A stretch of 64,000 nucleotides of DNA from an uncultured Bacilli bacterium (GTDB lineage Bacteria > Bacillota_I > Bacilli_A > RF39 > UBA660), in contig CAKPLP010000005.1 in assembly GCA_934167695.1 (NCBI GenBank), positions 22,955 to 86,954 of the forward strand, read 5' to 3'. The notes under the pieces were generated by a model. That model did no database searches. It saw only the letters and a program-made list of their open reading frames with translations, and was not told where the DNA came from. Position numbers and translations under genes: made by a program. This document shows, in pieces, positions 2,456 through 62,466 of this stretch (position 1 is its first letter; each line of letters starts with the position of its first letter).

Positions 2456-4108
2456 TTAACACACTTCTACTATATCACCAAATATATCAGATGCGCTATT
2501 ATTATTTGTATTTTTTTCTTCTTTTTTATCGAACACTAGTTCTTGTTCTTCTATATATTTATAAGTAATATTATTCTTTTTGTTTTTCACATATTCCTTT
2601 GCAGCATCATTCCAATCAGAATCAGTAATTATAGCCAATTTTTTATTAATATTCAATTTTTCTTTTAATACTTTTGACATTGCATCAATATTATTTAAAT
2701 TTTCTAAGACTATAGATTCATATTCATAACTAATTATCAAATAATCCTCACTTGAAAGTCTAAGATTACCTTCCAACAATGCACAAACTAAATAACCTAT
2801 TTGTTGATCAAAAACAAAATCATTTAATTTTTCAAAGCTATTCTTATCTTTATTTAGTTCCTCCTTAGTTGCATTAATAAAGGCATTATTCAAACGTGTT
2901 TTCATAATATTCATTATATTAGAATTTAATAAGTTATTATCGCTGACAATAGAAGTTTCATGTGAAACTTGATTAACAACACTATGATTTTCTTCTTTAG
3001 CACTTATTGCTGGTTCATTTATATTCTCTTTCTTCTTAATGGATGCTTTATCATTAGAAATTATTTCCCGGGAAATAATTTTATTATTATTTATAAAAGA
3101 TAAAAACATTATTTCTATATATATTTTAGGATTTGAACTTTTTTTAATATCAAACATTTTTTCATTTATAAGATTTGCCAATTTTTGATAATTGTCTATA
3201 TTTACCTTACCAGTTTCATTAATGTATTCCGAAATAATCTCTTCCTTTAAATAATTTAATAATTGAATCATTATTTGAATAAGATTTTTTCCTTTATCAT
3301 TCCATTTTTCCAAAAAATTAATTGTAGAAATAGCATCAAAATCAAATATATAATTTATCAATTCTTCTAAATCACTTTTAACAACTAAGCCATTCAAATT
3401 TAAAAAATCATTCATTAAAATTTTACCATCTGAATAAGAACTTAATTTATCAAGCATTCCTAAAGAATCTCTCATTCCACCATCTGATACTATCGCAATA
3501 TTCTTTAAAACTTCTATATCAACATCAATATTTTCTTTTTTAGAAACCATAGTTAAATTATCTATAATATTTTGTTCAGTCATTCTAGAAAAATTAAAGC
3601 ATTGACATCGTGAAATTATTGTTTCAGGAATTTTTTGAGGATCAGTAGTAGCTAATATAAATATAATATGTTCAGGTGGCTCTTCTAATGTTTTTAAAAG
3701 AGCATTAAATGCTTGAATTGTAAGCATATGAACCTCATCAATAATATATACTTTATATTTCAATTCACTAGGAACCAAATTGATTTTTTCTCGTAAATTT
3801 CTAATTTCATCAACACCATTATTAGAAGCAGCATCTATCTCTATAATATCAAGACAATCATCACCAGAAACATTACATATATCACAACAACCACAAATAT
3901 CACCATCATTATTATTTAAACAATTAACTGCTCGTGCAAATATCTTAGCTGTGGATGTTTTTCCTGTTCCACGTGGACCAATAAACAAATACGCATGAGA
4001 AATTTTATTATTTTTTATAGAATTTTTTAATGTTTTTACAATTATTTCTTGTCCAACTATATCTTCAAATTTTTTAGGTCTATATTTTCTATATAAAGTT
4101 TGATACAT
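2456..4108 (-). CDS. dnaX: DNA polymerase III gamma/tau subunit
   Basis: Walker A motif GPRGTGKTS and a Zn module (CGCCDICN). The N-terminus is YRKYRPKKFEDIVGQE, typical of DnaX. Confidence 0.9.
   Translation of the reverse strand: MYQTLYRKYRPKKFEDIVGQEIIVKTLKNSIKNNKISHAYLFIGPRGTGKTSTAKIFARAVNCLNNNDGDICGCCDICNVSGDDCLDIIEIDAASNNGVDEIRNLREKINLVPSELKYKVYIIDEVHMLTIQAFNALLKTLEEPPEHIIFILATTDPQKIPETIISRCQCFNFSRMTEQNIIDNLTMVSKKENIDVDIEVLKNIAIVSDGGMRDSLGMLDKLSSYSDGKILMNDFLNLNGLVVKSDLEELINYIFDFDAISTINFLEKWNDKGKNLIQIMIQLLNYLKEEIISEYINETGKVNIDNYQKLANLINEKMFDIKKSSNPKIYIEIMFLSFINNNKIISREIISNDKASIKKKENINEPAISAKEENHSVVNQVSHETSIVSDNNLLNSNIMNIMKTRLNNAFINATKEELNKDKNSFEKLNDFVFDQQIGYLVCALLEGNLRLSSEDYLIISYEYESIVLENLNNIDAMSKVLKEKLNINKKLAIITDSDWNDAAKEYVKNKKNNITYKYIEEQELVFDKKEEKNTNNNSASDIFGDIVEVC
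3063..3076. repeat. ATTTCCCGGGAAAT 14-bp palindrome inside the dnaX coding sequence. Three more copies lie in the gyrA-downstream repeat array.
   Basis: Exact string match. The GC-rich core CCCGGG is unusual in a roughly 25% GC background. Confidence 0.6.
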
Positions 4109-4177
4109 AATCTTTCACCACCACTAATAAAATTATATCAAATTTTTTCTTATTTTAAATAAAATTTATTATAAATT

Positions 4178-4621
4178 CTACCTAATATTAGAAAAAAAAT
4201 CATTCATTATTTTTTTTATTTCTTCAGAAAAATATCCACAACTATAATTAACTTTATTGTTGATTAAATCCTTTTCAAATATAGCTTTAATAATAATTGA
4301 ATTATTCTTATCTTTATTACTTAACCCACAATAAACGTTTTTAATTCTTGATTGTTTTATTGCACTAGCACACATAGGACAAGGCTCTAAGGTAACATAC
4401 ATATCACAATCAGATAATCTCCAATTATTCAAAATTTTTGATGCTTTTTCCACAGCCAATATTTCTGCGTGACTAATACAACAATTAGACTTTTCTTTTA
4501 AATTATAAGCTTTTGCCAAGACAACATTATCTTTTACGATGACAGCTCCAACTGGAACTTCACCCATCATAGCTGCCTTTTTTGCTTCATCGATTGCAAG
4601 TAACATATATTCTTCTTTCAT
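4178..4621 (-). CDS. tadA: tRNA-specific adenosine deaminase TadA
   Basis: CDA-fold motifs HAEILAV and PCPMCASAI. The start was moved to the ATG (MKEEY...) that follows a GGAGG RBS. The TTG-start extension in the ORF track overlaps the SRP RNA. Confidence 0.85.
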   Translation of the reverse strand: MKEEYMLLAIDEAKKAAMMGEVPVGAVIVKDNVVLAKAYNLKEKSNCCISHAEILAVEKASKILNNWRLSDCDMYVTLEPCPMCASAIKQSRIKNVYCGLSNKDKNNSIIIKAIFEKDLINNKVNYSCGYFSEEIKKIMNDFFSNIR

Positions 4622-4630
4622 TTTTCCTCC

Positions 4631-13061: not shown

Positions 13062-13213
13062 TTTAATTCCTTCTTTCTTATTCTATTAATATAAATTGTA
13101 TTATTATTATAGCTGTGGAAAAAGTTGAAAACTCTTCTTTTCACTTATATTATAACATATTTTTTAAAATTATCCTGTGGAAAACATTGTTGATATATAT
13201 TTTTTTCCACAAC
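13062..13213. promoter_or_regulatory. oriC: oriC, dnaA-dnaN half: DnaA boxes plus an AT-rich unwinding region
   Basis: TGTGGAAAA at about 13114 and about 13176, TTTTCCACA at about 13203, and an AT-rich run (ATATAAATTGTATTATTATTATA). Confidence 0.7.
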
Positions 13214-14575
13214 CTATTCAATATCCTTTTTTAATTTTTCTATAATATTAGCCAAATCTTTATTAACTTTTATCTCATTTTCTATTTTCTCTACAGAATG
13301 CATTACAGTAGAATGATCTTTTCCACCAAATTCTGTTCCAATCTTAGGAAATGATTCATTAGTCATGCATCTACATAAGTACATCGCAATCTGTCTTGGA
13401 AAAGCAATATTCGAACTTCTTTTTTTACTTCTAATATCTTCAACACTTATTTGGAAGAATTCAGCTACAACCTTTTGAATTCTATGAACATCATTTTTTT
13501 CACTAATTCCTTTACTAATAAAGTCTTTTAATGCCTCAATAGCTAAATTTAAAGTAATTGCAGACCCTCCCATGATAGCAGAATATGCAACAAGTCTTGT
13601 AATAGAACCCTCTAATTGTCTAACATCATTACCCATATTAGAAGCAATATATTCTATAACATCTTCTGGTATTTCCTTTTCAAAATTACCTGCAATTATT
13701 TTTCTTTTTATAATTTCTACTCTTAAATTGAAATCCGGTGGAAAAATATTAACTGTCAATCCCCAACAAAACCTTGTTCTTAAACGATCTTCCAATAACT
13801 TTAAATCATCTGGAGATCTATCTGATGATATAATAATTTGCTTAGAATCACTATATAATGTATTAAAAGTATGGAAAAATTCCTGTTGAGTCTGAGTAGC
13901 TCCACCTAAAAATTGAATATCATCAATAATTAATACATCAACATTTCTATATTTATTTTTAAAGAAATCTACATAGTTGAAATTTGTTCCATTACTATCC
14001 TTTTTATTTATACCAATAAAATCCTGAATAAATTGATCACTTGTAACATATAAAACTCTTTTATTAGAATTAGCAATTATATAATTACCAATAGCATGCA
14101 TTAAATGAGTTTTTCCAAGACCACTATTACCATATATAAATAATGGATTATACATTTTTCCGGGATTCTCAGCTACAGACAATGCTGCAGCCTGTGCAAA
14201 CTTATTACTATTACCAACAATAAAATTTTCAAATGTATATTTTGTATTTAAATTACTTTGTTCTTTATTATTATGGGGAACTCCACTAGGAATATCTTCT
14301 ACCTTAGTTTTTTTATTCTCTTCCTTAATTTCTTCCTCTAAAACAAATTCCAGCTCAAAATTTGTACCAGTAATATTATTTAATATATATTTAATTTTTT
14401 CTTCATAATTATCAGATAAATGTTTCTTATGAATAGGCATAGGTACAACAATAACAGCTTTTCCATCTTCTAATTTATATAATTTCGTATCTGCAAACCA
14501 AGTATCGTATGCAAGAGAGGAAAGTTCTTCTTTAATTTGTTTTAAAAAATTGGTCCAAAGGACCCCCATATTCAT
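13214..14575 (-). CDS. dnaA: chromosomal replication initiator DnaA
   Basis: AAA+ motif GNSGLGKTHL and a C-terminal DNA-binding domain. The start was set at MNMGVLW after a GAGGGGAG RBS. The 31-aa extension upstream in the ORF track runs into the DnaA-box array. Confidence 0.95.
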   Translation of the reverse strand: MNMGVLWTNFLKQIKEELSSLAYDTWFADTKLYKLEDGKAVIVVPMPIHKKHLSDNYEEKIKYILNNITGTNFELEFVLEEEIKEENKKTKVEDIPSGVPHNNKEQSNLNTKYTFENFIVGNSNKFAQAAALSVAENPGKMYNPLFIYGNSGLGKTHLMHAIGNYIIANSNKRVLYVTSDQFIQDFIGINKKDSNGTNFNYVDFFKNKYRNVDVLIIDDIQFLGGATQTQQEFFHTFNTLYSDSKQIIISSDRSPDDLKLLEDRLRTRFCWGLTVNIFPPDFNLRVEIIKRKIIAGNFEKEIPEDVIEYIASNMGNDVRQLEGSITRLVAYSAIMGGSAITLNLAIEALKDFISKGISEKNDVHRIQKVVAEFFQISVEDIRSKKRSSNIAFPRQIAMYLCRCMTNESFPKIGTEFGGKDHSTVMHSVEKIENEIKVNKDLANIIEKLKKDIE

Positions 14576-14927
14576 TTGACCATCTCCCCTCGAGCAATTT
14601 GTACAACAATTATAATAAAACATATTGTGGAAAAAATAAACAAAAAAATAACAATTTTTTTTCTCCACAACATTTCCACAGTTTTTTCCACATCCGAATG
14701 TTATATTCTATAATGATAAAAATCACTTTTCCACATTTTCCACAATTTTTTTATTAACAAGTTTAAAAAAGATATTCACAGCAATGTTAATTCTGTGGAA
14801 AAAGAAAAATAATCACAAAAATTAATAAATAAAAAGAATAAATTTTCTCGATAATAAAACTTTTATTTGACAAATAAAACTTTTATCCATTATAATAAGG
14901 GAGATTTATGTCTGGAGGTGGAAATTT
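14576..14927. promoter_or_regulatory. oriC: oriC, rpmH-dnaA half: array of at least 7 DnaA boxes
   Basis: TGTGGAAAA (14634), TTCTCCACA (14662), ATTTCCACA (14672), TTTTCCACA (14685, 14727, 14736), TGTGGAAAA (14794). It lies between divergent rpmH and dnaA. Confidence 0.8.
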
Positions 14928-15050
14928 ATGAAGAGAACTTATCAACCAAATAATCGTAAAAAAGCTAAAAAATTAGGCTTCTTTGCTCGTAAAAAAACAA
15001 ATATTTTAAATCGTCGTCGTCGCAAAGGTCGTAAAAATCTTTGTAAATAA
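14928..15050 (+). CDS. rpmH: 50S ribosomal protein L34
   Basis: Translates to MKRTYQPNNRKKAKKLGFFARKKTNILNRRRRKGRKNLCK after a GGAGG RBS. It is below the size cutoff of the ORF track. Confidence 0.85.
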   Translation: MKRTYQPNNRKKAKKLGFFARKKTNILNRRRRKGRKNLCK

Positions 15051-15100
15051 TACCACCGTTTTTTAAACAGTGGTTTTTTAAATTAAAAGAAGGAATAAAT

Positions 15101-15430
15101 ATGAGAAAATTATATATAGTAAAAACAAAAGAAGAATTTAATGACTTAATAAATAATGGCTCATGTAAAAAAAATAAATATTTTGTAGTATATTCAAAAT
15201 CCAATAATTTAAAATATGATCGCTTTGGTTTTTCAGTAGGAAAAAAAATTGGAAATGCTGTAGTTCGTAATAAATATAAAAGGAAAATGAGAAGTATCAT
15301 AGATATTTATAGAAAAGACTATCTTAATTGTAAAGATTATATTATAATATTAAGAAGTAGAGCATTAAATCTAAATTATCAGGAATTAAAGAATGAATTA
15401 ATATCTCTACTTGATGTGAGGGAGAAATAA
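15101..15430 (+). CDS. rnpA: RNase P protein component
   Basis: A 109-aa basic protein directly after rpmH. It contains the conserved FGFSVGKK region. Confidence 0.85.
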   Translation: MRKLYIVKTKEEFNDLINNGSCKKNKYFVVYSKSNNLKYDRFGFSVGKKIGNAVVRNKYKRKMRSIIDIYRKDYLNCKDYIIILRSRALNLNYQELKNELISLLDVREK

Positions 15431-16374
15431 TGAAAAAAAACAAAAATACTAACAGAAAAAAAATACTTATTTTAATATTGTTAATAATAACATTAACCAC
15501 AGGATGTACAAAAACATTAGTAGATAAAAATAAAAAAGCAGTAATAAATAAACAAACTGGTCAAAATTTAACAGCGAACATTTTATGTAAACCAACTGCA
15601 AAAGAAACAATAAAACAATATAAAAAAAACAAGGTAAATATAGATAAGTTACCAGATTGTGAAAATTTTAAAATTAATTCAGGAAAATATGAAGGATTGT
15701 GGACTACAATTCTTGTAAAGCCATTAGCATATGTAATTTTACAATTAGGAAAATTAACTAAAAATTATGCACTAGCATTAGTATTAATAACAATTATTAT
15801 TAGACTAATAAGTTATCCGTTTACCAAAAAGGCAGCTATGCAATCAGAATTAATGAAAAAGGCTCAACCAGAAATGCAAAAAATTCAAAAGAAATATGCT
15901 GGTAAACAAGATGAAGAATCTATGATGAAACAAAGCCAAGAAATGATGATGATTTATAAAAAATACAATATTAGTCCATTAGCAGGTTGTTTATTTTCCT
16001 TTATTCAATTACCATTATTTATAGCTTTTTATGAAGCCGTTCAACGTTTTCCAGCTATATTTGAAGATCAATTTATAGGAATTCAATTAGGTACAACTCC
16101 AAGTGTTGGTATAACAACATCAACATTTTATATCTATATAATAATAATGCTTCTAATCTCTTTAACTACAATTTATTCATTTAAAATGAATATGTCAGGA
16201 CAAACATTAGATCCTACAATGAAAAACATGCCAATATATATGAGTATTATGATCATAATAACAGCATTATTTATGCCTTCTGCACTTTGTATTTATTGGA
16301 TTGTTAATAACTTATGTACAATATTACAAAATATAATAGTAAAAAAACATATAGATCAATTAAAAAGGAGTTAA
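15430..16374 (+). CDS. yidC: membrane protein insertase YidC/OxaA (lipoprotein type)
   Basis: A lipobox LTTGC followed by a multi-TM 60-kDa-insertase-like core. Its position after rnpA is conserved. Confidence 0.85.
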   Translation: MKKNKNTNRKKILILILLIITLTTGCTKTLVDKNKKAVINKQTGQNLTANILCKPTAKETIKQYKKNKVNIDKLPDCENFKINSGKYEGLWTTILVKPLAYVILQLGKLTKNYALALVLITIIIRLISYPFTKKAAMQSELMKKAQPEMQKIQKKYAGKQDEESMMKQSQEMMMIYKKYNISPLAGCLFSFIQLPLFIAFYEAVQRFPAIFEDQFIGIQLGTTPSVGITTSTFYIYIIIMLLISLTTIYSFKMNMSGQTLDPTMKNMPIYMSIMIIITALFMPSALCIYWIVNNLCTILQNIIVKKHIDQLKRS

Positions 16375-38431: not shown

Positions 38432-39361
38432 ATGAAAAATAAATTAAAAAATAAATATATATTTATACCTCTGGGAATATTAATTGTTTTAATGATTTTC
38501 TTAGGAGGAGTATATGCAGCAACAACAATCGCAGGAAGTAGTGTAACCTATTCAAATTCATCATCCGGTTTACTAGCTACAACAGTTCAGGCGGCAATCG
38601 ATGAATTATATACCCAAACAGATATAAGAAAAATGGGGAATTTTATAGGTGCATATAAATACAGTACAGCAACATCAACAAAATGTATCACAGGTAATGA
38701 ATCAACATGTGTAAAATCAACATGCTATAAAACAAAAACAAGTGGAAGTTGTCCCGCCGGAACAATCGTAAAATATAAAGTAAATGATACAGACATAGTA
38801 ACATTTCATGTAATGTATGATAATGGAACTACTATGACAATGCAAAGTCAAAGAAATATTGTATATAATAACCATTGGTATGAAGCAGCTAATAATACTT
38901 ATTCAAATACATCTGGTCCGATTGTAGCATTACCAGCACTAGAAAGCGCAACTGCTGGCTGGACTAATGTAAATAACCAAACATATACAATGGGTACAAC
39001 AACTTTCAAAACTAATGCCTACACTGGTTGTAGTACATATAGTTCATGTGCGACCAACACTTATACATTAGCATCAAGAACAGCAAAGGCCAGAATGATA
39101 ACAATACAAGAAGCAAAATATTTAGGATGTACAGCTACTGATAAATCATGTCCAATCTGGATGAATAATTATTTACCACAATCCACAAGTTATGGAGGAA
39201 CAATAAATGATACAACAGATAGAAACACTGGTTACTGGACTATGAATGCTTATCCTTCAAATGTTTATTATGCGTGGTATGTTTCCTCAACTGGAAGTGT
39301 CAAAACTTATGATGCTTATGCTACATTTGGTATAAGAGCAGTTGTCGTAGTATCAAAATAA
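38432..39361 (+). CDS. secreted/anchored Cys- and Thr-rich protein of unknown function (full-length copy)
   Basis: An N-terminal signal-anchor followed by a Thr/Ser/Cys-rich mature region. A paralog at 47889-48620 shares a roughly 300-bp identical block. Confidence 0.5.
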   Translation: MKNKLKNKYIFIPLGILIVLMIFLGGVYAATTIAGSSVTYSNSSSGLLATTVQAAIDELYTQTDIRKMGNFIGAYKYSTATSTKCITGNESTCVKSTCYKTKTSGSCPAGTIVKYKVNDTDIVTFHVMYDNGTTMTMQSQRNIVYNNHWYEAANNTYSNTSGPIVALPALESATAGWTNVNNQTYTMGTTTFKTNAYTGCSTYSSCATNTYTLASRTAKARMITIQEAKYLGCTATDKSCPIWMNNYLPQSTSYGGTINDTTDRNTGYWTMNAYPSNVYYAWYVSSTGSVKTYDAYATFGIRAVVVVSK

Positions 39362-47626: not shown

Positions 47627-47817
47627 TTATACTATAAATGGTGAACAAAATGAATCATAAAAAAATACTTAATGAATATTTAAAAGGTACAGAATATTAT
47701 AAAAGGCTTTTAAAGTTTACAAAAAAGGACAAACATAGATAATTATTTTATCTATGTTTTTGTTGATGATAAAAATAAAATGTTGTATACTTTAGTTGTC
47801 TAATAATAGGAGGAAGT

Positions 47818-47862
47818 ATGAGAGTGTCAATCAAATGTTCTAGTGGGGGGGGGTCACTTTAG
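47818..47862 (+). other. mini-ORF (MRVSIKCSSGGGSL) with a strong RBS, containing a G9 homopolymer at 47848-47856
   Basis: GGAGGAAGT-ATG ... AGTGGGGGGGGGTCAC ... TAG. It lies directly upstream of the truncated paralog. Confidence 0.4.
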
Positions 47863-47888
47863 TAGAACAATAAATATATTTAAGAAAA

Positions 47889-48620
47889 ATGGGCAACTTT
47901 ATAGGAGTATATAAATACAGTACAGCAACATCAACAAAATGTATCACAGGTAATGAATCAACATGTGTAAAATCAACATGCTATAAAACAAAAACAAGTG
48001 GCAGTTGTCCTGTGGGAACAATCATAAAGTACAAAGTAAACGATTCAGATATAGTGACTTTTCATGTAATGTATGATACTGGATCTACTATGACAATGCA
48101 AAGTCAAAAAAATATTTTGTATGGTACAAGATGGTATCAATCAGATCCTACTAATGGATTTTCTAACACAACTGGTCCGATTGTAGCATTACCAGCACTA
48201 GAAAGTGCAACCGCAGGCTGGACTAATGTAAATAACCAAACATATACAATGGGTACAACAACTTTCAAAACTAATGCCTACACTGGTTGTAGTACATATA
48301 GTTCATGTGCGACCAACACTTATACATTAGCATCAAGAACAGCAAAGGCCAGAATGATAACAATACAAGAAGCAAAATATTTAGGATGTACAGCTACTGA
48401 TAAATCATGTCCAATCTGGATGAATAATTATTTACCACAATCCACAAGTTATGGAGGAACAATAAATGATACAACAGATAGAAACACTGGTTACTGGACT
48501 ATGAATGCTTATCCTTCAAATATTTATTATGCGTGGTTTGTTTCTTCCCATGGAAGTGTCCAAAATTATGATGCTTATGCTCCATTTGGTATAAGAGCAG
48601 TAGTAGTCGTTTCTAAATAA
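47889..48620 (+). pseudogene. 5'-truncated paralog of the 38432-39361 Cys/Thr-rich secreted protein. It lacks the signal-anchor and may be a silent cassette or gene remnant.
   Basis: The ORF starts at the equivalent of residue about 67 of the full copy. The central roughly 300 bp (about 48218-48520 versus about 38978-39280) is identical at nucleotide level, while both flanks have diverged. Confidence 0.45.
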
Positions 48621-55776: not shown

Positions 55777-56511
55777 ATGATTGATTTTGTAATCTGTGAT
55801 GATAATAAAGAATTCACAATATTACTAAGAAAAAAAGTAAAACAATTTATGAGTAAATATCCAGAATTAGAATGTCAATATCATATTTTCTCTGGATATG
55901 GTAAAGAGTTTGAAAGAATAGTAGAATCTGAAAATACTTTTAAAGTATACTTTCTAGATATAGAAACTAAAAGAGGTTCTGGATTAGATGCAACCAGAAT
56001 GATCAGAGAAAAGTATGACGATTGGAACTCTATAATTATGATTGTAACATCACATGAAGAGTTCAGATATGAAGCATTAAGTAACAGATTATATTTATTT
56101 GATTTTCTAAATAAATTGAACAACTTTGACTCCAACTTAGAAGAAGACTTAAAGAACGTCTTAAAACAATATACCAGAAATAGTAAAAGTATTACTTTAG
56201 AATACGATAGAGCAATTCATAGAGTAGAACTAAGAGATATTATTTATGTAGAAAAACAAATAGATAGTAAGAAATGCATTGTAGTAACCACTTATGGTAT
56301 CAAATATGTACAATGTTCATTAAATGATATTTACAATCAACTAGATGGAGATTTCATGAAAGCAAGTAGAAGTCTAATAGTAAATATCAAAAAGATAAGA
56401 GAATATAACTCAAAGACAAATACCATTTACTTTGTAAATGAATACAAATCTAACCTAGTATCAAGAGAAAGCAAGAAGGAGTTGATGAATCGTGTTAGAA
56501 ATAATAACTAA
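55777..56511 (+). CDS. LytTR-family response regulator (AgrA-like)
   Basis: An N-terminal receiver domain (phospho-acceptor near FLDIE) and a C-terminal LytTR DNA-binding domain. Confidence 0.8.
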   Translation: MIDFVICDDNKEFTILLRKKVKQFMSKYPELECQYHIFSGYGKEFERIVESENTFKVYFLDIETKRGSGLDATRMIREKYDDWNSIIMIVTSHEEFRYEALSNRLYLFDFLNKLNNFDSNLEEDLKNVLKQYTRNSKSITLEYDRAIHRVELRDIIYVEKQIDSKKCIVVTTYGIKYVQCSLNDIYNQLDGDFMKASRSLIVNIKKIREYNSKTNTIYFVNEYKSNLVSRESKKELMNRVRNNN

Positions 56512-57826
56512 AACATTTTGTTTTGTATTAATTACAATATTATACTTCTGTATAATGAAAGGAACTCTTAATTCAAATGTAAAAATATTAAGTAAAAGAA
56601 ATTTCTTATTGCTGTTTATATTAATTATCATCGTCGCTGTATCATATACAACAGAATATTCTATACAAGCTGTAATCGTAAGAGTTATAGCAAATATTAT
56701 AGTATTCAAATTAATATTTGATGAGTCAATATATAAAACTACAGTTATATTAACATTAGCTATGATTATAAATATATTAGGAGATATTATAAACTCTGCT
56801 ATAATAATGAATTTTTATACATTAGAAGAAGTTAGAAGTCTTCCTATCGCTATGTTAATATCTAATGTTATGACAGTGTTATATTCATACATTATTTTTA
56901 GAATTAAATTTGTATCAGATAAACTAAAATTAGTAGCAAAAAATTTAAATGATAACAACATAGTTTCATCTATAATAATTTGCGCATCTATTTTTATTTT
57001 AGCAATATGTACTTTAGCAAATTTAGGTGACATTTTTACACTTAATATGTCATATTTTATAAATGTTTTAATAGTAATCGTTTTTGTAATAGTATTATTA
57101 ATATTTTTTGTTGACAATAATAAATATCAAAATTTAGTAAACCAATATGATTCACTATTTAAATATATTCAAACATTTGAAAGTAGTATGGATAAAATTA
57201 ATTTAAGTAACCATGAGTTCAAGAATGAGTTAATAATGTTAAAAAGTTACATTAAAGATGATCAAAAAGAAAAATCATTAAATATAATAAATGACATAAT
57301 TGCTGAGAATAAGAAGCAAGATAGTGCAATTTTAACTAGTTTGAAAAATTTACCAAAAGGTGGTATTAAAGGTTTATTATATTATAAAATTATTGTAGCA
57401 ATGGATAATAAATTAAAAGTCAGTCTAGATGTAAGTTCAACTATTAAAGGAAAACTAAACAACTTAGATATAGAACAATCAAAATTAATTTGTAATTTAA
57501 TAGGAATATATTTGGATAATGCGATAGAGGCATCACATGAAAGTGGTAAAAAATTAATTGGTATAGAAATATACACATTAGAAGATAAAGTTGAATTTGT
57601 TTTTTCTAATACCTTCAAAGATCAAGAAATAGATTTAGACAAGGTAGATAAAAATGGATATACAACAAAAGGAAAGAATCATGGAAGAGGTCGCTATTTA
57701 GCAAAGAGATTAATTGAAAAAAATGATTGGATTTCCTCTGAAACCAAAATAATGAACAACCTATATATTCAAAAGATTATAATAGATAAAAACAAATTAA
57801 TTAAAAGTGAAGAAAAAACAAAATAA
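56492..57826 (+). CDS. HPK10-family sensor histidine kinase (AgrC-like)
   Basis: A multi-TM N-terminus, an H-box SNHEFKN and a GHKL ATPase (GKNHGRGRYL). It overlaps the response-regulator gene. Confidence 0.75.
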   Translation: MLEIITKTFCFVLITILYFCIMKGTLNSNVKILSKRNFLLLFILIIIVAVSYTTEYSIQAVIVRVIANIIVFKLIFDESIYKTTVILTLAMIINILGDIINSAIIMNFYTLEEVRSLPIAMLISNVMTVLYSYIIFRIKFVSDKLKLVAKNLNDNNIVSSIIICASIFILAICTLANLGDIFTLNMSYFINVLIVIVFVIVLLIFFVDNNKYQNLVNQYDSLFKYIQTFESSMDKINLSNHEFKNELIMLKSYIKDDQKEKSLNIINDIIAENKKQDSAILTSLKNLPKGGIKGLLYYKIIVAMDNKLKVSLDVSSTIKGKLNNLDIEQSKLICNLIGIYLDNAIEASHESGKKLIGIEIYTLEDKVEFVFSNTFKDQEIDLDKVDKNGYTTKGKNHGRGRYLAKRLIEKNDWISSETKIMNNLYIQKIIIDKNKLIKSEEKTK

Positions 57827-57832
57827 CAATAT

Positions 57833-57869
57833 AAAAATACTATTGGCATAATTAACCAATAGTATTTTT
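57833..57869. terminator. bidirectional rho-independent terminator between the convergent sensor kinase and agrD
   Basis: A perfect 13-bp stem AAAATACTATTGG / CCAATAGTATTTT flanked by A- and T-runs. Confidence 0.7.
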
Positions 57870-57907
57870 ATAACATCAATTATATTTATAATAAGATGAA
57901 TAACATT

Positions 57908-58027
57908 TTAATCAATAAGTGATTCTAATGGCTGAGGTTCATCTGTTAAAAACATTACACACCCCATATTAGCACTTCCAACTATAAGCATTGCAACCAT
58001 TGCTATAAGTCTTGTTAATATCTTCAT
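57908..58027 (-). CDS. agrD: AgrD-like autoinducing peptide precursor (39 aa)
   Basis: Hand translation gives MKILTRLIAMVAMLIVGSANMGCVMFLTDEPQPLESLID. It has an amphipathic leader, a Cys followed by 4-5 hydrophobic residues, and an acidic DE-P tail. A GGAAGGG RBS precedes it, and it lies immediately downstream of agrB. It is not in the ORF track. Confidence 0.6.
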   Translation of the reverse strand: MKILTRLIAMVAMLIVGSANMGCVMFLTDEPQPLESLID

Positions 58028-58055
58028 ACTACCAACATCCCTTCCTATAAATTTA

Positions 58056-58685
58056 CTAAATATCATATTTAATTGATATTAAGCCATTTTTTCTTTTATA
58101 ATTTACATAATTCTTATATGGCTGTTTGAAAACCTTATAAGTTATGGGACTAACCATTACATCTTCCAAGACCACAGCATCGGTTAATAGAAGTGAAAAT
58201 CTATATTCATTTAAAAATAATGCAATAATAGTAAAAATTGTTGCTGTTGATACGGTAATAATTTTTCTAATGACTCTCTTTCTTTTATTAGGAAGAGGTC
58301 TTTTTATTGTGTCAGCGGGTGCATAAAAGAAAAGATATATAGTACCAAGTATTCCCGTTATAAATAAGACATTTTTATTAATATATAAATTTAATAGTAA
58401 AAACGGAAACATTACAAATGATAAAATGGAAACAAGTAAACACTCCCAACTTTTCTTTGCATGAAATCCAAATCCAGTAAATCTAACTATATTAAATAAT
58501 AATAATAAGATTAGCATTTCTTTAAAGATTCCAAATATAAAAGCTAATACAAATATAATAGCTGTTTTAGTGGTTGTTAAGTAAAGTCCCTCGAGTCCAT
58601 ATCTCAATTTCAACGTATCACCTTCATTGATTTTTTGATATTTGGCTATTAAATTAATAGCTCCATCCAAGAACTTCTCTTTCAT
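58056..58685 (-). CDS. agrB: AgrB-like membrane peptidase
   Basis: FGFHAKKSWECLLVSILSF...YAPADTIKRPLPNKRKR aligns with S. aureus AgrB ([23 protein letters not shown]...YAPAATKKKPIPVRLIK), including the catalytic His and Cys. Confidence 0.8.
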   Translation of the reverse strand: MKEKFLDGAINLIAKYQKINEGDTLKLRYGLEGLYLTTTKTAIIFVLAFIFGIFKEMLILLLLFNIVRFTGFGFHAKKSWECLLVSILSFVMFPFLLLNLYINKNVLFITGILGTIYLFFYAPADTIKRPLPNKRKRVIRKIITVSTATIFTIIALFLNEYRFSLLLTDAVVLEDVMVSPITYKVFKQPYKNYVNYKRKNGLISIKYDI

Positions 58686-62346: not shown

Positions 62347-62466
62347 AATAATAAATTTGTCCACAGATGACAATTTGTCCACGATTTGTCCACATAGCAT
62401 AAATAACGTGGACAGAATCGTGGAACCCCCCCATAAAAATCAATAAAAAATCTACGTGGACAATTA
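62347..62466. promoter_or_regulatory. array of six TGTCCAC-core 9-mers (3 direct, 3 inverted) with a C7 tract. Candidate DnaA-box cluster or iteron/arm-site array.
   Basis: TTGTCCACA (62347), TTGTCCACG (62365), TTGTCCACA (62376), CGTGGACAG (62397), CGTGGAAC + C7 (62409-62422), CGTGGACAA (62445), TGTGGACAT (62458). Confidence 0.45.

What the first reader, a model, noticed from the sequence alone, without database searches (positions are those of the whole stretch)
38432..39361. Duplicated Cys/Thr-rich secreted-protein genes sharing a roughly 300-bp block of perfect nucleotide identity (gene conversion or cassette system)
Gene 1 (38432-39361) has a signal-anchor and a Thr/Ser/Cys-rich mature domain. 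Copy 2 (47889-48620, 9.5 kb away, same strand) begins at the equivalent of residue about 67, with no signal peptide. The central roughly 300 bp are identical (about 38978-39280 and about 48218-48520). The N-proximal roughly 200 bp differ substantially (MYDNGTTMTMQSQRNIVYNNHWYEAANNTYSNTS versus MYDTGSTMTMQSQKNILYGTRWYQSDPTNGFSNTT), and the 3' end has scattered substitutions. A mosaic of identical and diverged blocks is the hallmark of recent gene conversion between an expression locus and a promoterless or truncated cassette, as in antigenic or surface variation systems. The protein family itself is uncharacterised.
Basis: seen in the sequence. Interest (0 to 1): 0.7.

Follow-up and report, generated by a model that had tools for sequence, protein, structure and literature searches.

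The report
Converted paralogs of a switchable lectin-like family
Two nearby genes for secreted lectin-like proteins of an uncultured gut bacterium have swapped a 306-base stretch by gene conversion; one copy is a broken on/off "contingency" gene, and both belong to a large unnamed family whose members usually carry a slippery run of G bases at their start.

Summary
Gene A (38432-39361) and copy B (47889-48620) align over 752 columns with 63 differences. One run of 306 bases is perfectly identical (38957-39262 = 48216-48521; permutation P<1e-5).

It is a gene-conversion tract, not a cassette system. Sister strains with 99.2-100% identical flanks carry a full-length, signal-peptide-bearing B gene at the same mntP-murA site. 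In two of them the central block of B differs from that of A by about 6%. The window's B has A-type sequence there, so transfer most likely ran A to B. Other strains show other tracts, including one from B to A.

The window's B lost 178 bp between 10-bp direct repeats. That removed the signal peptide and shifted the frame, so it is a pseudogene.

B is also a probable contingency locus. A G-tract (47845-47853) lies in a short leader ORF that has a Shine-Dalgarno site (SD). The tract is G7, G8 or G9 among strains, and only G8 puts the full protein in frame.

The protein is an enlarged C-type-lectin-like domain. Its closest solved fold is the Thomasclavelia ramosa IgA-protease N-terminal domain.

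Family-wide, G8-G12 tracts sit in the -35/-10 promoter spacer of most genes with the N-terminal motif.

The perfection of the identity may be inflated by assembler bubble collapse at two sites.

The parts
38432..39361 (+). Gene A: intact 309-aa family member. It has no poly-G tract upstream.
   Evidence: ORF. The identical protein occurs on contigs from 2 samples. Syntenic between lemA and gerQ in all strains.
38432..38518 (+). Predicted Sec signal peptide of A (residues 1-29, MKNKLKNKY / hydrophobic core / VYA|A).
   Evidence: Read from the sequence. GVYAAT is the family consensus there, with A29 nearly invariant. pLDDT is below 50 for residues 1-35. No signal-peptide predictor was run.
38519..38629 (+). 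Conserved N-terminal motif (SxVxYSNxxSGLxxTxVQxAIDELY).
   Evidence: Alignment A3. The same 30-aa unit is tandemly repeated up to 52 times in giant proteins.
38630..39358 (+). Cys-rich enlarged C-type-lectin-like module (residues 67-309).
38653..38745 (+). 93-bp block identical to 47909-48001.
   Evidence: The L005 B copy is 14.9% diverged across 38630-38745, the segment that contains this block, so this looks like an older conversion tract.
38746..38956 (+). Diverged (hypervariable) block, pairing with 48002-48215.
   Evidence: 17.1% nucleotide divergence, 16 of 70 aa differ, dN/dS about 0.3. It coincides with the gap-rich loop of the family alignment and with the pLDDT dip at residues 151-160.
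38957..39262 (+). 306-bp conversion tract, donor side (A).
47731..47759 (+). Perfect 12-bp hairpin followed by a T-run, after mntP; likely the mntP terminator.
   Evidence: inverted repeat I5. The consensus terminator scan did not call it because the stem is AT-rich.
47763..47791 (+). Candidate promoter of B (TTGATG-17-TATACT). ATGTTGTATACT is shared with the region upstream of gene A.
   Evidence: 9 of 12 matches; the number of sites found is not above the shuffle expectation. for the shared 12-mer. Inference only.
47808..47862 (+). B 5' cassette: SD AGGAGG (47808-47813), ATG1 (47818-47820), and a 14-codon leader ORF that ends at TAG 47860-47862 in the G9 state.
   Evidence: Sequence. With G8 the same ATG1 reads into a full-length 324-aa protein in L090 and L092.
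47845..47853 (+). Poly-G tract (G9); the only G/C run of 8 or more in the 64-kb window.
   Evidence: The tract is G7, G8, G9 or interrupted among strains with near-identical flanks. G7, G9 and G10 occur at paralogous cassettes of the same species.
47881..47890 (+). Junction of the 178-bp deletion: a single remaining copy of the direct repeat TAAGAAAAAT.
   Evidence: Alignment with L004 and L005, where the repeats lie at L004 10038-10047 and 10216-10225. The same deletion is present in L003, from another study.
47889..48620 (+). Copy B remnant ORF (243 aa): no SD, no signal peptide, out of frame with ATG1. A pseudogene.
48216..48521 (+). 306-bp conversion tract, recipient side (B).
   Evidence: The B copies of L004 and L005 differ from A-type here at 19 sites (6.2%). 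The B copies of the window, L003, L088 and L090 carry A-type bases.

Best explanation
A and B are old paralogs (background dS about 0.4-0.66) of a large, unnamed family of secreted, disulfide-rich, enlarged C-type-lectin-like proteins. The family occurs in uncultured low-GC gut Bacilli. The proteins are probably ligand-binding (adhesin or lectin type) surface or secreted factors. The 306-bp identity is a non-reciprocal homologous-recombination (gene-conversion) tract in which A sequence overwrote the central part of B. The same two loci exchange other segments, in both directions, in sister strains, so this is ongoing concerted evolution between loci 9.2 kb apart. B is a contingency gene. Its only start codon with a Shine-Dalgarno site (SD) lies upstream of a hypermutable G-tract, so tract length sets the reading frame: G8 on, G7 or G9 off. 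In this strain B is in the off state (G9). It has also lost 178 bp through slippage between 10-bp direct repeats, which removed the signal peptide and N-terminal motif and shifted the frame, so B is now a pseudogene. Shown: the identity block and its significance, synteny, the deletion, tract-length polymorphism, frame consequences in silico, and the fold prediction. Inferred: the direction of conversion, actual on/off switching, secretion, and ligand binding.
Against: All data are metagenome assemblies. One related contig (L006) is a demonstrable chimera that jumps from locus A to locus B through the shared block. Contigs that begin inside the genes (the A copies of L090 and L092) are therefore unreliable. 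The A-to-B direction rests on one lineage (L004/L005) that retains B-type sequence; no outgroup was obtained. Sites 39091 and 39140 suggest bubble collapse, so the identity may not be perfect. Most assemblies of B read G9 (off), and about 35 paralogs in one rabbit-gut MAG (metagenome-assembled genome) all read G9. This could mean a fixed functional length rather than a switch. For two cassette-bearing paralogs of this species the main ORF has its own SD downstream, so tract length cannot change their frame. dN/dS in the variable block is about 0.3, so there is no signal of diversifying selection. No experimental data exist for any family member.
Confidence: 0.75

Rival explanations
1. A dedicated antigenic-variation cassette system, like pilE/pilS or vlsE: an expressed locus A is diversified by unidirectional conversion from a promoterless 5'-truncated silent cassette B.
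For: B in this strain lacks its 5' end. Mosaic identity exists. In strain L005 a B-to-A tract exists. A second family gene in the same sample is also 5'-deleted.
Against: B is full-length, with an SD, a start codon and a signal peptide, in four sister strains. The truncations are microhomology deletions that differ by locus and by strain. In the window the inferred direction is A to B. L088 has the conversion without the deletion. There is only one truncated partner, and no specialised recombination element was found.
Confidence: 0.07
2. The identical block is an assembly artefact, that is, repeat collapse or path switching in the de Bruijn graph.
For: L006 is a clear A/B chimera through this block. 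Contigs often break at these genes. Sites 39091 and 39140 look like collapsed bubbles.
Against: The window contig traverses both copies with unique flanks on all four sides and is seen in 2 samples. Independent assemblies from other studies (L003, L088) show the same A-type block in B, with 0-2 differences. A true 6% divergence, as in L004, would not be collapsed while neighbouring single-base differences at 38947, 38953 and 38956 were kept.
Confidence: 0.05
3. There was no conversion: a recent duplication followed by fast divergence outside a strongly constrained core, or an embedded nucleotide-level element.
For: The core is the best-conserved part of the family alignment. Even in L004 its dS (0.15) is below that of the flanks.
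Against: Synonymous differences drop to zero only in some strains. The L004 and L005 B copies differ at 19 sites, 8 of them changing an amino acid. Segment genealogies are incongruent among strains. Rfam finds nothing there.
Confidence: 0.03
4. The G-tract is not a phase switch but a fixed-length functional element, for example a promoter-spacer or UP-like element, an SD-like G-run, or a protein-binding site. On this view the length differences among strains are neutral or errors.
For: G9 dominates (48 of 61 tracts). About 35 paralogs in one MAG all have G9 with a 19-nt spacer. Most B assemblies read G9.
Against: Lengths of 7, 8, 9, 10 and 12 occur between orthologs and recent paralogs whose flanks are otherwise conserved. 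Only G8 opens B from ATG1, and gene callers then find a 324-aa protein. One strain has the tract interrupted by T. Homopolymers of 8 or more G are hypermutable in every bacterium examined (established knowledge from Campylobacter, Neisseria and Haemophilus).
Confidence: 0.2

Closest known systems
Neisseria Opa proteins
   Same: A multi-copy paralog family of surface binding proteins. Each copy is switched on or off by a slippage-prone repeat inside the leader-peptide coding region. Hypervariable segments are shuffled between loci by gene conversion.
   Different: Opa uses CTCTT pentamers rather than poly-G. Opa proteins are beta-barrel outer-membrane proteins of a Gram-negative pathogen, whereas these are Sec-secreted C-type-lectin-like proteins of Gram-positive-type gut commensals. 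There is no sequence or fold relationship, and switching is not demonstrated here.
Homopolymer-in-promoter-spacer phase variation (Mycoplasma hyorhinis vlp poly-A; Neisseria meningitidis porA/opc poly-G/C; Bordetella fim poly-C)
   Same: In most family members of other species the G8-G12 tract abuts or lies within 6 nt of a -10 box and fills a 17-22-nt -35/-10 spacer. As in the vlp family, many tandem paralogs each have their own tract.
   Different: In the window's species the tract lies in a leader ORF with an SD rather than in a recognisable promoter spacer. No expression data exist.
Campylobacter jejuni poly-G contingency loci
   Same: A low-GC genome in which G tracts of 8 or more are vastly over-represented and attached to surface-structure genes, with length polymorphism among near-identical strains.
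   Different: In C. jejuni the tracts are mostly intragenic in glycosylation genes. Here they mark one protein family.
Thomasclavelia ramosa IgA protease N-terminal domain (PDB 9QA6) and Legionella Lcl C-terminal domain (8Q4E)
   Different: Identity is 14-21% and there is no profile-sequence hit to the PDB. The IgAse domain lacks the tethering disulfides and has a zinc site, and it is not needed for catalysis. Here the domain stands alone or ends adhesin-like multidomain proteins.
pilE/pilS pilin antigenic variation
   Same: A 5'-truncated homolog and mosaic identity with an expressed gene.
   Different: See the membership test. The truncation is a strain-specific deletion, there is a single partner, the direction is opposite, and there is no G4 initiator.
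DGR variable proteins with a C-type-lectin-like fold (Mtd, TvpA)
   Different: The substitutions between the two copies are of all types rather than adenine-specific, so the diagnostic template/variable-repeat pattern is absent. A reverse transcriptase was not searched for.

Membership tests
Interlocus gene conversion between paralogs | An identity tract significantly longer than expected from overall divergence. | tested here: met
   306 bp, against a permutation maximum of 169 in 1e5 trials.
Interlocus gene conversion between paralogs | Segment-wise incongruence: the same segment is paralog-specific in some genomes and homogenised in others. | tested here: met
   The central block is 6.2% diverged in L004 and 0-1% in the window, L088, L005 and L090. 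The 3' end is always 12.5-14.6% diverged.
Interlocus gene conversion between paralogs | Non-reciprocal: the donor is unchanged. | tested here: inconclusive
   The window's A keeps A-type sequence, as L004's A does. Polarity rests on one lineage, with no outgroup.
Simple-sequence contingency locus (slipped-strand phase variation) | A homopolymer of 8 or more in the 5' coding region or promoter, far above compositional expectation. | tested here: met
   G9 at 47845-47853 is unique in the window. Family loci hold 61 tracts against 0.15 expected.
Simple-sequence contingency locus (slipped-strand phase variation) | Tract length is polymorphic among otherwise near-identical genomes. | tested here: met
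   G7, G8, G9 and an interrupted tract at locus B, with flanks at least 99.2% identical.
Simple-sequence contingency locus (slipped-strand phase variation) | A length change toggles the reading frame or the promoter spacing. | tested here: met
   In silico only. G8 puts ATG1 in frame for a 324-aa protein. G9 ends at TAG after 14 codons. Promoter spacers are 17-22 nt in other species.
Simple-sequence contingency locus (slipped-strand phase variation) | Reversible switching within a clonal population. | not testable with these tools
   This needs read-level or culture data.
pilE/pilS-type cassette antigenic variation | A bank of promoterless, 5'-truncated silent copies conserved as such. | tested here: not met
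   One truncated copy. The locus is full-length in L004, L005, L088 and L090.
pilE/pilS-type cassette antigenic variation | Unidirectional transfer from the silent copy to the expression locus. | tested here: not met
   The window tract is inferred as A (intact) to B.
[quoted passage not shown] | The C-type-lectin-like alpha/beta core recognised by structure comparison. | tested here: met
[quoted passage not shown] | Ca2+ or carbohydrate-binding long-loop motifs (EPN/QPD, WND). | not tested
   No coordinates-level analysis was possible. Ligand unknown.
Diversity-generating retroelement target | Variable-repeat and template-repeat pair differing only at template adenines, with a reverse transcriptase nearby. 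| tested here: not met
   The A/B differences are of all substitution types. A reverse transcriptase was not searched for.

The most novel reading that the evidence does not exclude
The family is a combinatorial, individually switchable repertoire of lectin-like binding proteins in uncultured gut Bacilli, with up to dozens of tandem paralogs per genome, each carrying its own poly-G switch. The switch has two architectures: in the promoter spacer, and in a leader ORF or signal peptide. Interlocus conversion and recurrent 5' microhomology deletions continuously reshuffle and retire members. This would be a Gram-positive commensal counterpart of Opa/Vlp systems, possibly tuned to host glycans or to IgA pressure.
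Probability: 0.3. Interest if true: 0.75.

Novelty: new member of a known kind. Interest (0 to 1): 0.55.

Why it matters
Phase variation in the gut microbiota is known mainly from invertible promoters in Bacteroidales and from methylase switches. Repeat-based contingency gene families have hardly been described for uncultured gut Bacilli. Here a family of at least 4,000 sequence clusters, with no Pfam, NCBIfam or PHROG name, has a confident lectin-like fold related to the N-terminal domain of a gut IgA protease. It shows the full signature of a variable surface repertoire: G-tracts, multi-copy arrays, paralog conversion and recurrent inactivation. If confirmed, the family offers a handle on how these abundant but uncultured commensals vary what they display to the host. 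For annotation practice, it also shows that 'mosaic' proteins of this family in metagenome catalogues include assembly chimeras.

Tried and rejected
- Family searches named nothing. Pfam, NCBIfam and PHROGs on A, B and relatives gave nothing above threshold. A profile search of PDB sequences gave no hit. Rfam found nothing near either locus.
- The afdb50 fold library was unavailable.
- Promoter and terminator consensus scans gave no more sites than shuffles, so the promoter assignments in the window remain inference.
- Proteins P0001 and P0035 looked like natural A/B recombinants. P0001's contig (L006) joins lemA-A directly to murA, skipping the intervening argS, prfA and PBP genes (presumably essential). 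It is therefore an assembly chimera and was discarded as evidence. P0035's scaffold was not examined further and was set aside with it.
- A simple fusion of ATG1 to the window's remnant B by a change in G number was tested by hand. All three frames hit stops because of the 178-bp deletion.
- A possible 67-nt internal duplication of the promoter/leader around the G-tract has only weak support (11 of 500 shuffles reach the score).
- The inverted-repeat search in the B upstream region found only the mntP terminator hairpin, AT-rich partial matches and one 11-nt pair, so nothing suggested an invertible switch; the minus-strand promoter-like match is not conserved in paralogous cassettes.
- dN/dS gave no sign of positive selection.
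- Literature searches found no description of this family or of poly-G switching in these taxa.
- The species itself was not recovered in the GTDB representative scan; the best locus was 62% identical.

Full report
**Observation**

Gene A (38432-39361, 309 aa) and ORF B (47889-48620, 243 aa) are both present. Their homology covers 38616-39361 and 47872-48620, which is 752 columns with 63 differences. The longest perfect run is 306 bp (38957-39262 = 48216-48521) and a second run is 93 bp (38653-38745 = 47909-48001). Random placement of the 63 differences gave a mean longest run of 53 and never more than 169 in 100,000 trials. Between the two runs lies a 210-bp block that is 17% diverged. The last 96 bp are 14.6% diverged. 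No further copy lies in the window.

**Source and context**

The window is part of a 136-kb contig from a Hadza gut metagenome. The genome has about 26% GC and carries sporulation and cell-wall genes (spoIIR, spoIIID, gerQ, PBP, murA). A lies between lemA and gerQ. B lies between mntP and murA.

**What copy B is**

Sister strains recovered through exact-protein look-ups have flanking DNA 99.2-100% identical to the window and the same synteny. These are L004, L005, L088, L090, L092, and L091 with L003. In L004, L005, L088 and L090 locus B encodes a full-length protein of 317-324 aa with a signal peptide and the N-terminal motif; L092's contig ends inside the gene (220 aa, from the same start).

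Alignment shows that the window's B lacks 178 bp lying between two copies of TAAGAAAAAT (L004 10038-10047 and 10216-10225). One copy remains, at window 47881-47890. Because 178 is not a multiple of three, the remnant is out of frame with everything upstream. The ATG at 47889 has no Shine-Dalgarno sequence. The same deletion allele occurs in an assembly from another study (L003). B is therefore a recently inactivated paralog, not a designed promoterless cassette.

**The G-tract**

Thirty-five bases upstream of the remnant ORF lies G9 (47845-47853), the only G/C run of 8 or more in 64 kb. It sits inside a short ORF that starts at ATG 47818 and is preceded by AGGAGG (47808-47813). With G9 that ORF ends at TAG 47860-47862.

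Among sister strains the tract varies while the surrounding 200 nt are nearly invariant:

| Tract state | Strains |
|---|---|
| G7 | L088 |
| G8 | L090, L092 |
| G9 | window, L004, L005, L091/L003 |
| interrupted by a T | L095 |

One contig (L093) ends inside the tract. With G8, ATG1 is in frame with the whole gene, and gene callers report a 324-aa protein, MRVSIKCSGGGGHFSRTINIFKKNYKILIG.... No other SD-preceded start exists in that frame. This is the anatomy of a translational contingency switch.

A second contig from the same sample has similar coverage (NODE_717, 27.5x against 26.6x) and probably belongs to the same genome. It carries three more genes with the same 5' cassette:

- One has G7. 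Its leader ORF stop overlaps the main ATG as ATGA.
- One has G9. Its main ORF has its own SD about 80 nt downstream.
- One has lost about 200 bp between AGTAGGAGGAA repeats, which removed the cassette and the signal peptide. That gene is intact, with G10, in another sample.

Deletion of the 5' end by microhomology is therefore recurrent in this family.

**Gene conversion**

A-versus-B divergence by segment differs by strain:

| Strain | Central block, A vs B | Other features |
|---|---|---|
| L004 | 6.2% (19 sites, 8 aa) | least homogenised |
| window | 0% | B carries the 178-bp deletion |
| L003 (B only; A from same-sample contig L091) | identical at every listed variable site | B carries the 178-bp deletion |
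| L088 | 0.7% | B is full-length, so conversion did not require or follow the deletion |
| L005 | 1.0% | A carries B-type bases at 39083-39142, a B-to-A tract; L005's B is also uniquely diverged (14.9%) across the segment 38630-38745 |
| L090 | 0% | A and B identical over about 650 bp |

In every strain the 3' 96 bp stay 12.5-14.6% diverged. The background dS of 0.4-0.66 shows the duplication is old. The window's shared block matches the A allele of L004, a strain whose B is distinct. The parsimonious direction is therefore A to B, meaning the intact gene donated to the copy that is now dead. This is the opposite of a silent-cassette-to-expression-site flow.

**Artefact control**

One related MEGAHIT contig (L006) runs from lemA and the A 5' end straight into the B 3' end and murA. 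It skips the intervening argS, prfA and PBP genes (presumably essential), so it is a chimera through the repeat. 'Mosaic' proteins such as P0001 are therefore not evidence.

The window contig has unique flanks around both copies and is seen in two samples. Independent assemblies (L003, L088) confirm an A-type block in B.

There is one caveat. Sites 39091 and 39140 are 49 bp apart, closer than a typical k-mer. They read C,G in both copies here but A,A in both copies in assemblies whose flanks are identical to the window over 14.6 kb. All four combinations occur among assemblies, always with A equal to B. The simplest reading is that two real paralog differences were merged by bubble removal, so the true identity may be 304/306. 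This does not change the conclusion.

**The protein**

No Pfam, NCBIfam or PHROG model matches. The family has 361 close homologs and 4,153 50%-identity clusters at E<=1e-3. It comes from gut MAGs (metagenome-assembled genomes) of humans, mice, rabbits and ruminants, labelled Bacilli, Erysipelotrichaceae or 'Tenericutes'.

The IgAse domain is described as a double-sized C-type-lectin-like domain of unknown role that is dispensable for catalysis (PMC12237041). Seven Cys are invariant.

Residues 67-309 form a module that also ends proteins of up to 3,535 aa. Long-form members examined with Pfam carry BspA-type LRR or Listeria-Bacteroides repeats and, in one case, a SipW/camelysin-type signal. 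The likely function is extracellular ligand binding. This is inferred from the fold and the domain company, not tested.

**Family-wide G-tracts**

In 425 kb of family loci from GTDB genomes there are 61 G/C runs of 8 or more, against 0.15 expected from composition. All 61 are on the gene strand, and 48 lie within 150 nt upstream of a family gene start. Of 52 genes with the N-terminal motif and enough upstream sequence, 41 have such a tract. Across all 47 tract-bearing genes it abuts or lies within 6 nt of a -10 box (TATAAT, TAGAAT, TATGAT or TATCAT; TATACT in L010), and in the 44 with enough upstream sequence it lies inside the spacer after a TTGACA-like or TTGCAA -35 box. The resulting spacers are 17-22 nt. 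Lengths of 8-12 occur between paralogous promoters with conserved flanks.

One rabbit-gut MAG has about 35 tandem copies, all with G9 and a 19-nt spacer. Either that is the default low-expression state of a one-at-a-time repertoire, or it argues for a fixed functional length. I cannot distinguish these without reads.

**Comparison with known systems**

Functionally the closest analogue is the Neisseria Opa family: repeats in the leader-peptide coding region, many paralogs, and interlocus conversion of variable segments. For the promoter-spacer architecture the analogues are Mycoplasma vlp, Neisseria porA/opc and Bordetella fim. The defining features of the pilE/pilS cassette model were tested and not met. 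The DGR substitution pattern is excluded, because the differences between the copies are of all types.

**Verdict**

The gene-conversion inference is supported and the cassette-system inference is not. The locus is an ordinary kind of event, paralog conversion plus pseudogenisation of a contingency gene. It nevertheless exposes an uncharacterised, large, probably phase-variable lectin-like family.

Noticed in passing
L006 (ERZ27287023 k141_236682) 3693-4622: This contig joins lemA and the 5' end of gene A directly to the 3' end of gene B and murA, omitting the 9.2 kb in between, which holds argS, prfA and a PBP gene (presumably essential). It is an assembly chimera through the shared block. 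Its product, P0001 (97% identical to A), sits in protein catalogues as if it were real.
   Followed up: yes
L099 3690-3800 versus L098 3740-4010 (L099 is from the window's own sample, contig NODE_717): A different gene with the same N-terminal module (199 aa, non-lectin C-terminus) has lost about 200 bp between AGTAGGAGGAA repeats. The deletion removed the G-tract cassette and the signal peptide. This parallels the window's B deletion.
   Followed up: yes
P0121 (5298 aa), P0154 (2706 aa), P0234 (2309 aa): The roughly 30-aa N-terminal motif (SxVxYxNxxSGLxSxNVQxAIDELY, profile positions 35-68) occurs as 25-52 tandem repeats in giant proteins. Pfam gives no meaningful name for it.
   Followed up: partly
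L004/L005 9927-9952; window 47784-47796: A 13-nt unit, GTTGTATACTTTA, is tandemly duplicated in the B promoter region of L004 and L005 but is single in the window, L088 and L090. It is another slippage polymorphism next to the candidate -10 box.
   Followed up: no
window 47789-47806 and 47856-47873: An 18-nt direct repeat (ACTTTAGT..AATAA) follows both the candidate -10 box and the G-tract. It hints that the promoter/SD/ATG1 segment is a duplicate of the sequence around the G-tract. That would explain how a promoter-spacer tract came to lie in a leader ORF. Support is weak (11 of 500 shuffles reach the score).
   Followed up: partly
window 47830-47803 (minus strand): A strong promoter-like match, TTGACA-16-TATTAT (11 of 12), lies antisense across the B SD and ATG1. 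It is not conserved in paralogous cassettes, so it is probably chance.
   Followed up: partly
L088 1355-2272: The gene A allele of strain L088 lacks 12 nt in the signal-peptide n-region (MKNKLKNKY becomes MKNKY). This is slippage in an AAAAATAAAT repeat.
   Followed up: no
window about 13200-15450: GC skew changes sign near 15 kb. ORFs run on the minus strand before that point and on the plus strand after it. This is probably the replication origin region.
   Followed up: no
window 62426-62432: The only other G/C homopolymer of 6 or more in the window is C7, in an intergenic stretch flanked by a repeated ACGTGGACA motif.
   Followed up: no
window 55777-58685: An agr-like quorum-sensing cluster lies downstream: a LytTR response regulator, a HATPase_c_5 kinase, a 39-aa ORF and AgrB (Pfam tags).
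   Followed up: no
L049, L050, L062, L064, L067, L093, L100-L102: Many contigs from independent assemblies begin or end at or just beside the poly-G tract or the shared 5' leader. These elements systematically break short-read assemblies, so family copy numbers in MAGs are probably underestimated.
   Followed up: partly
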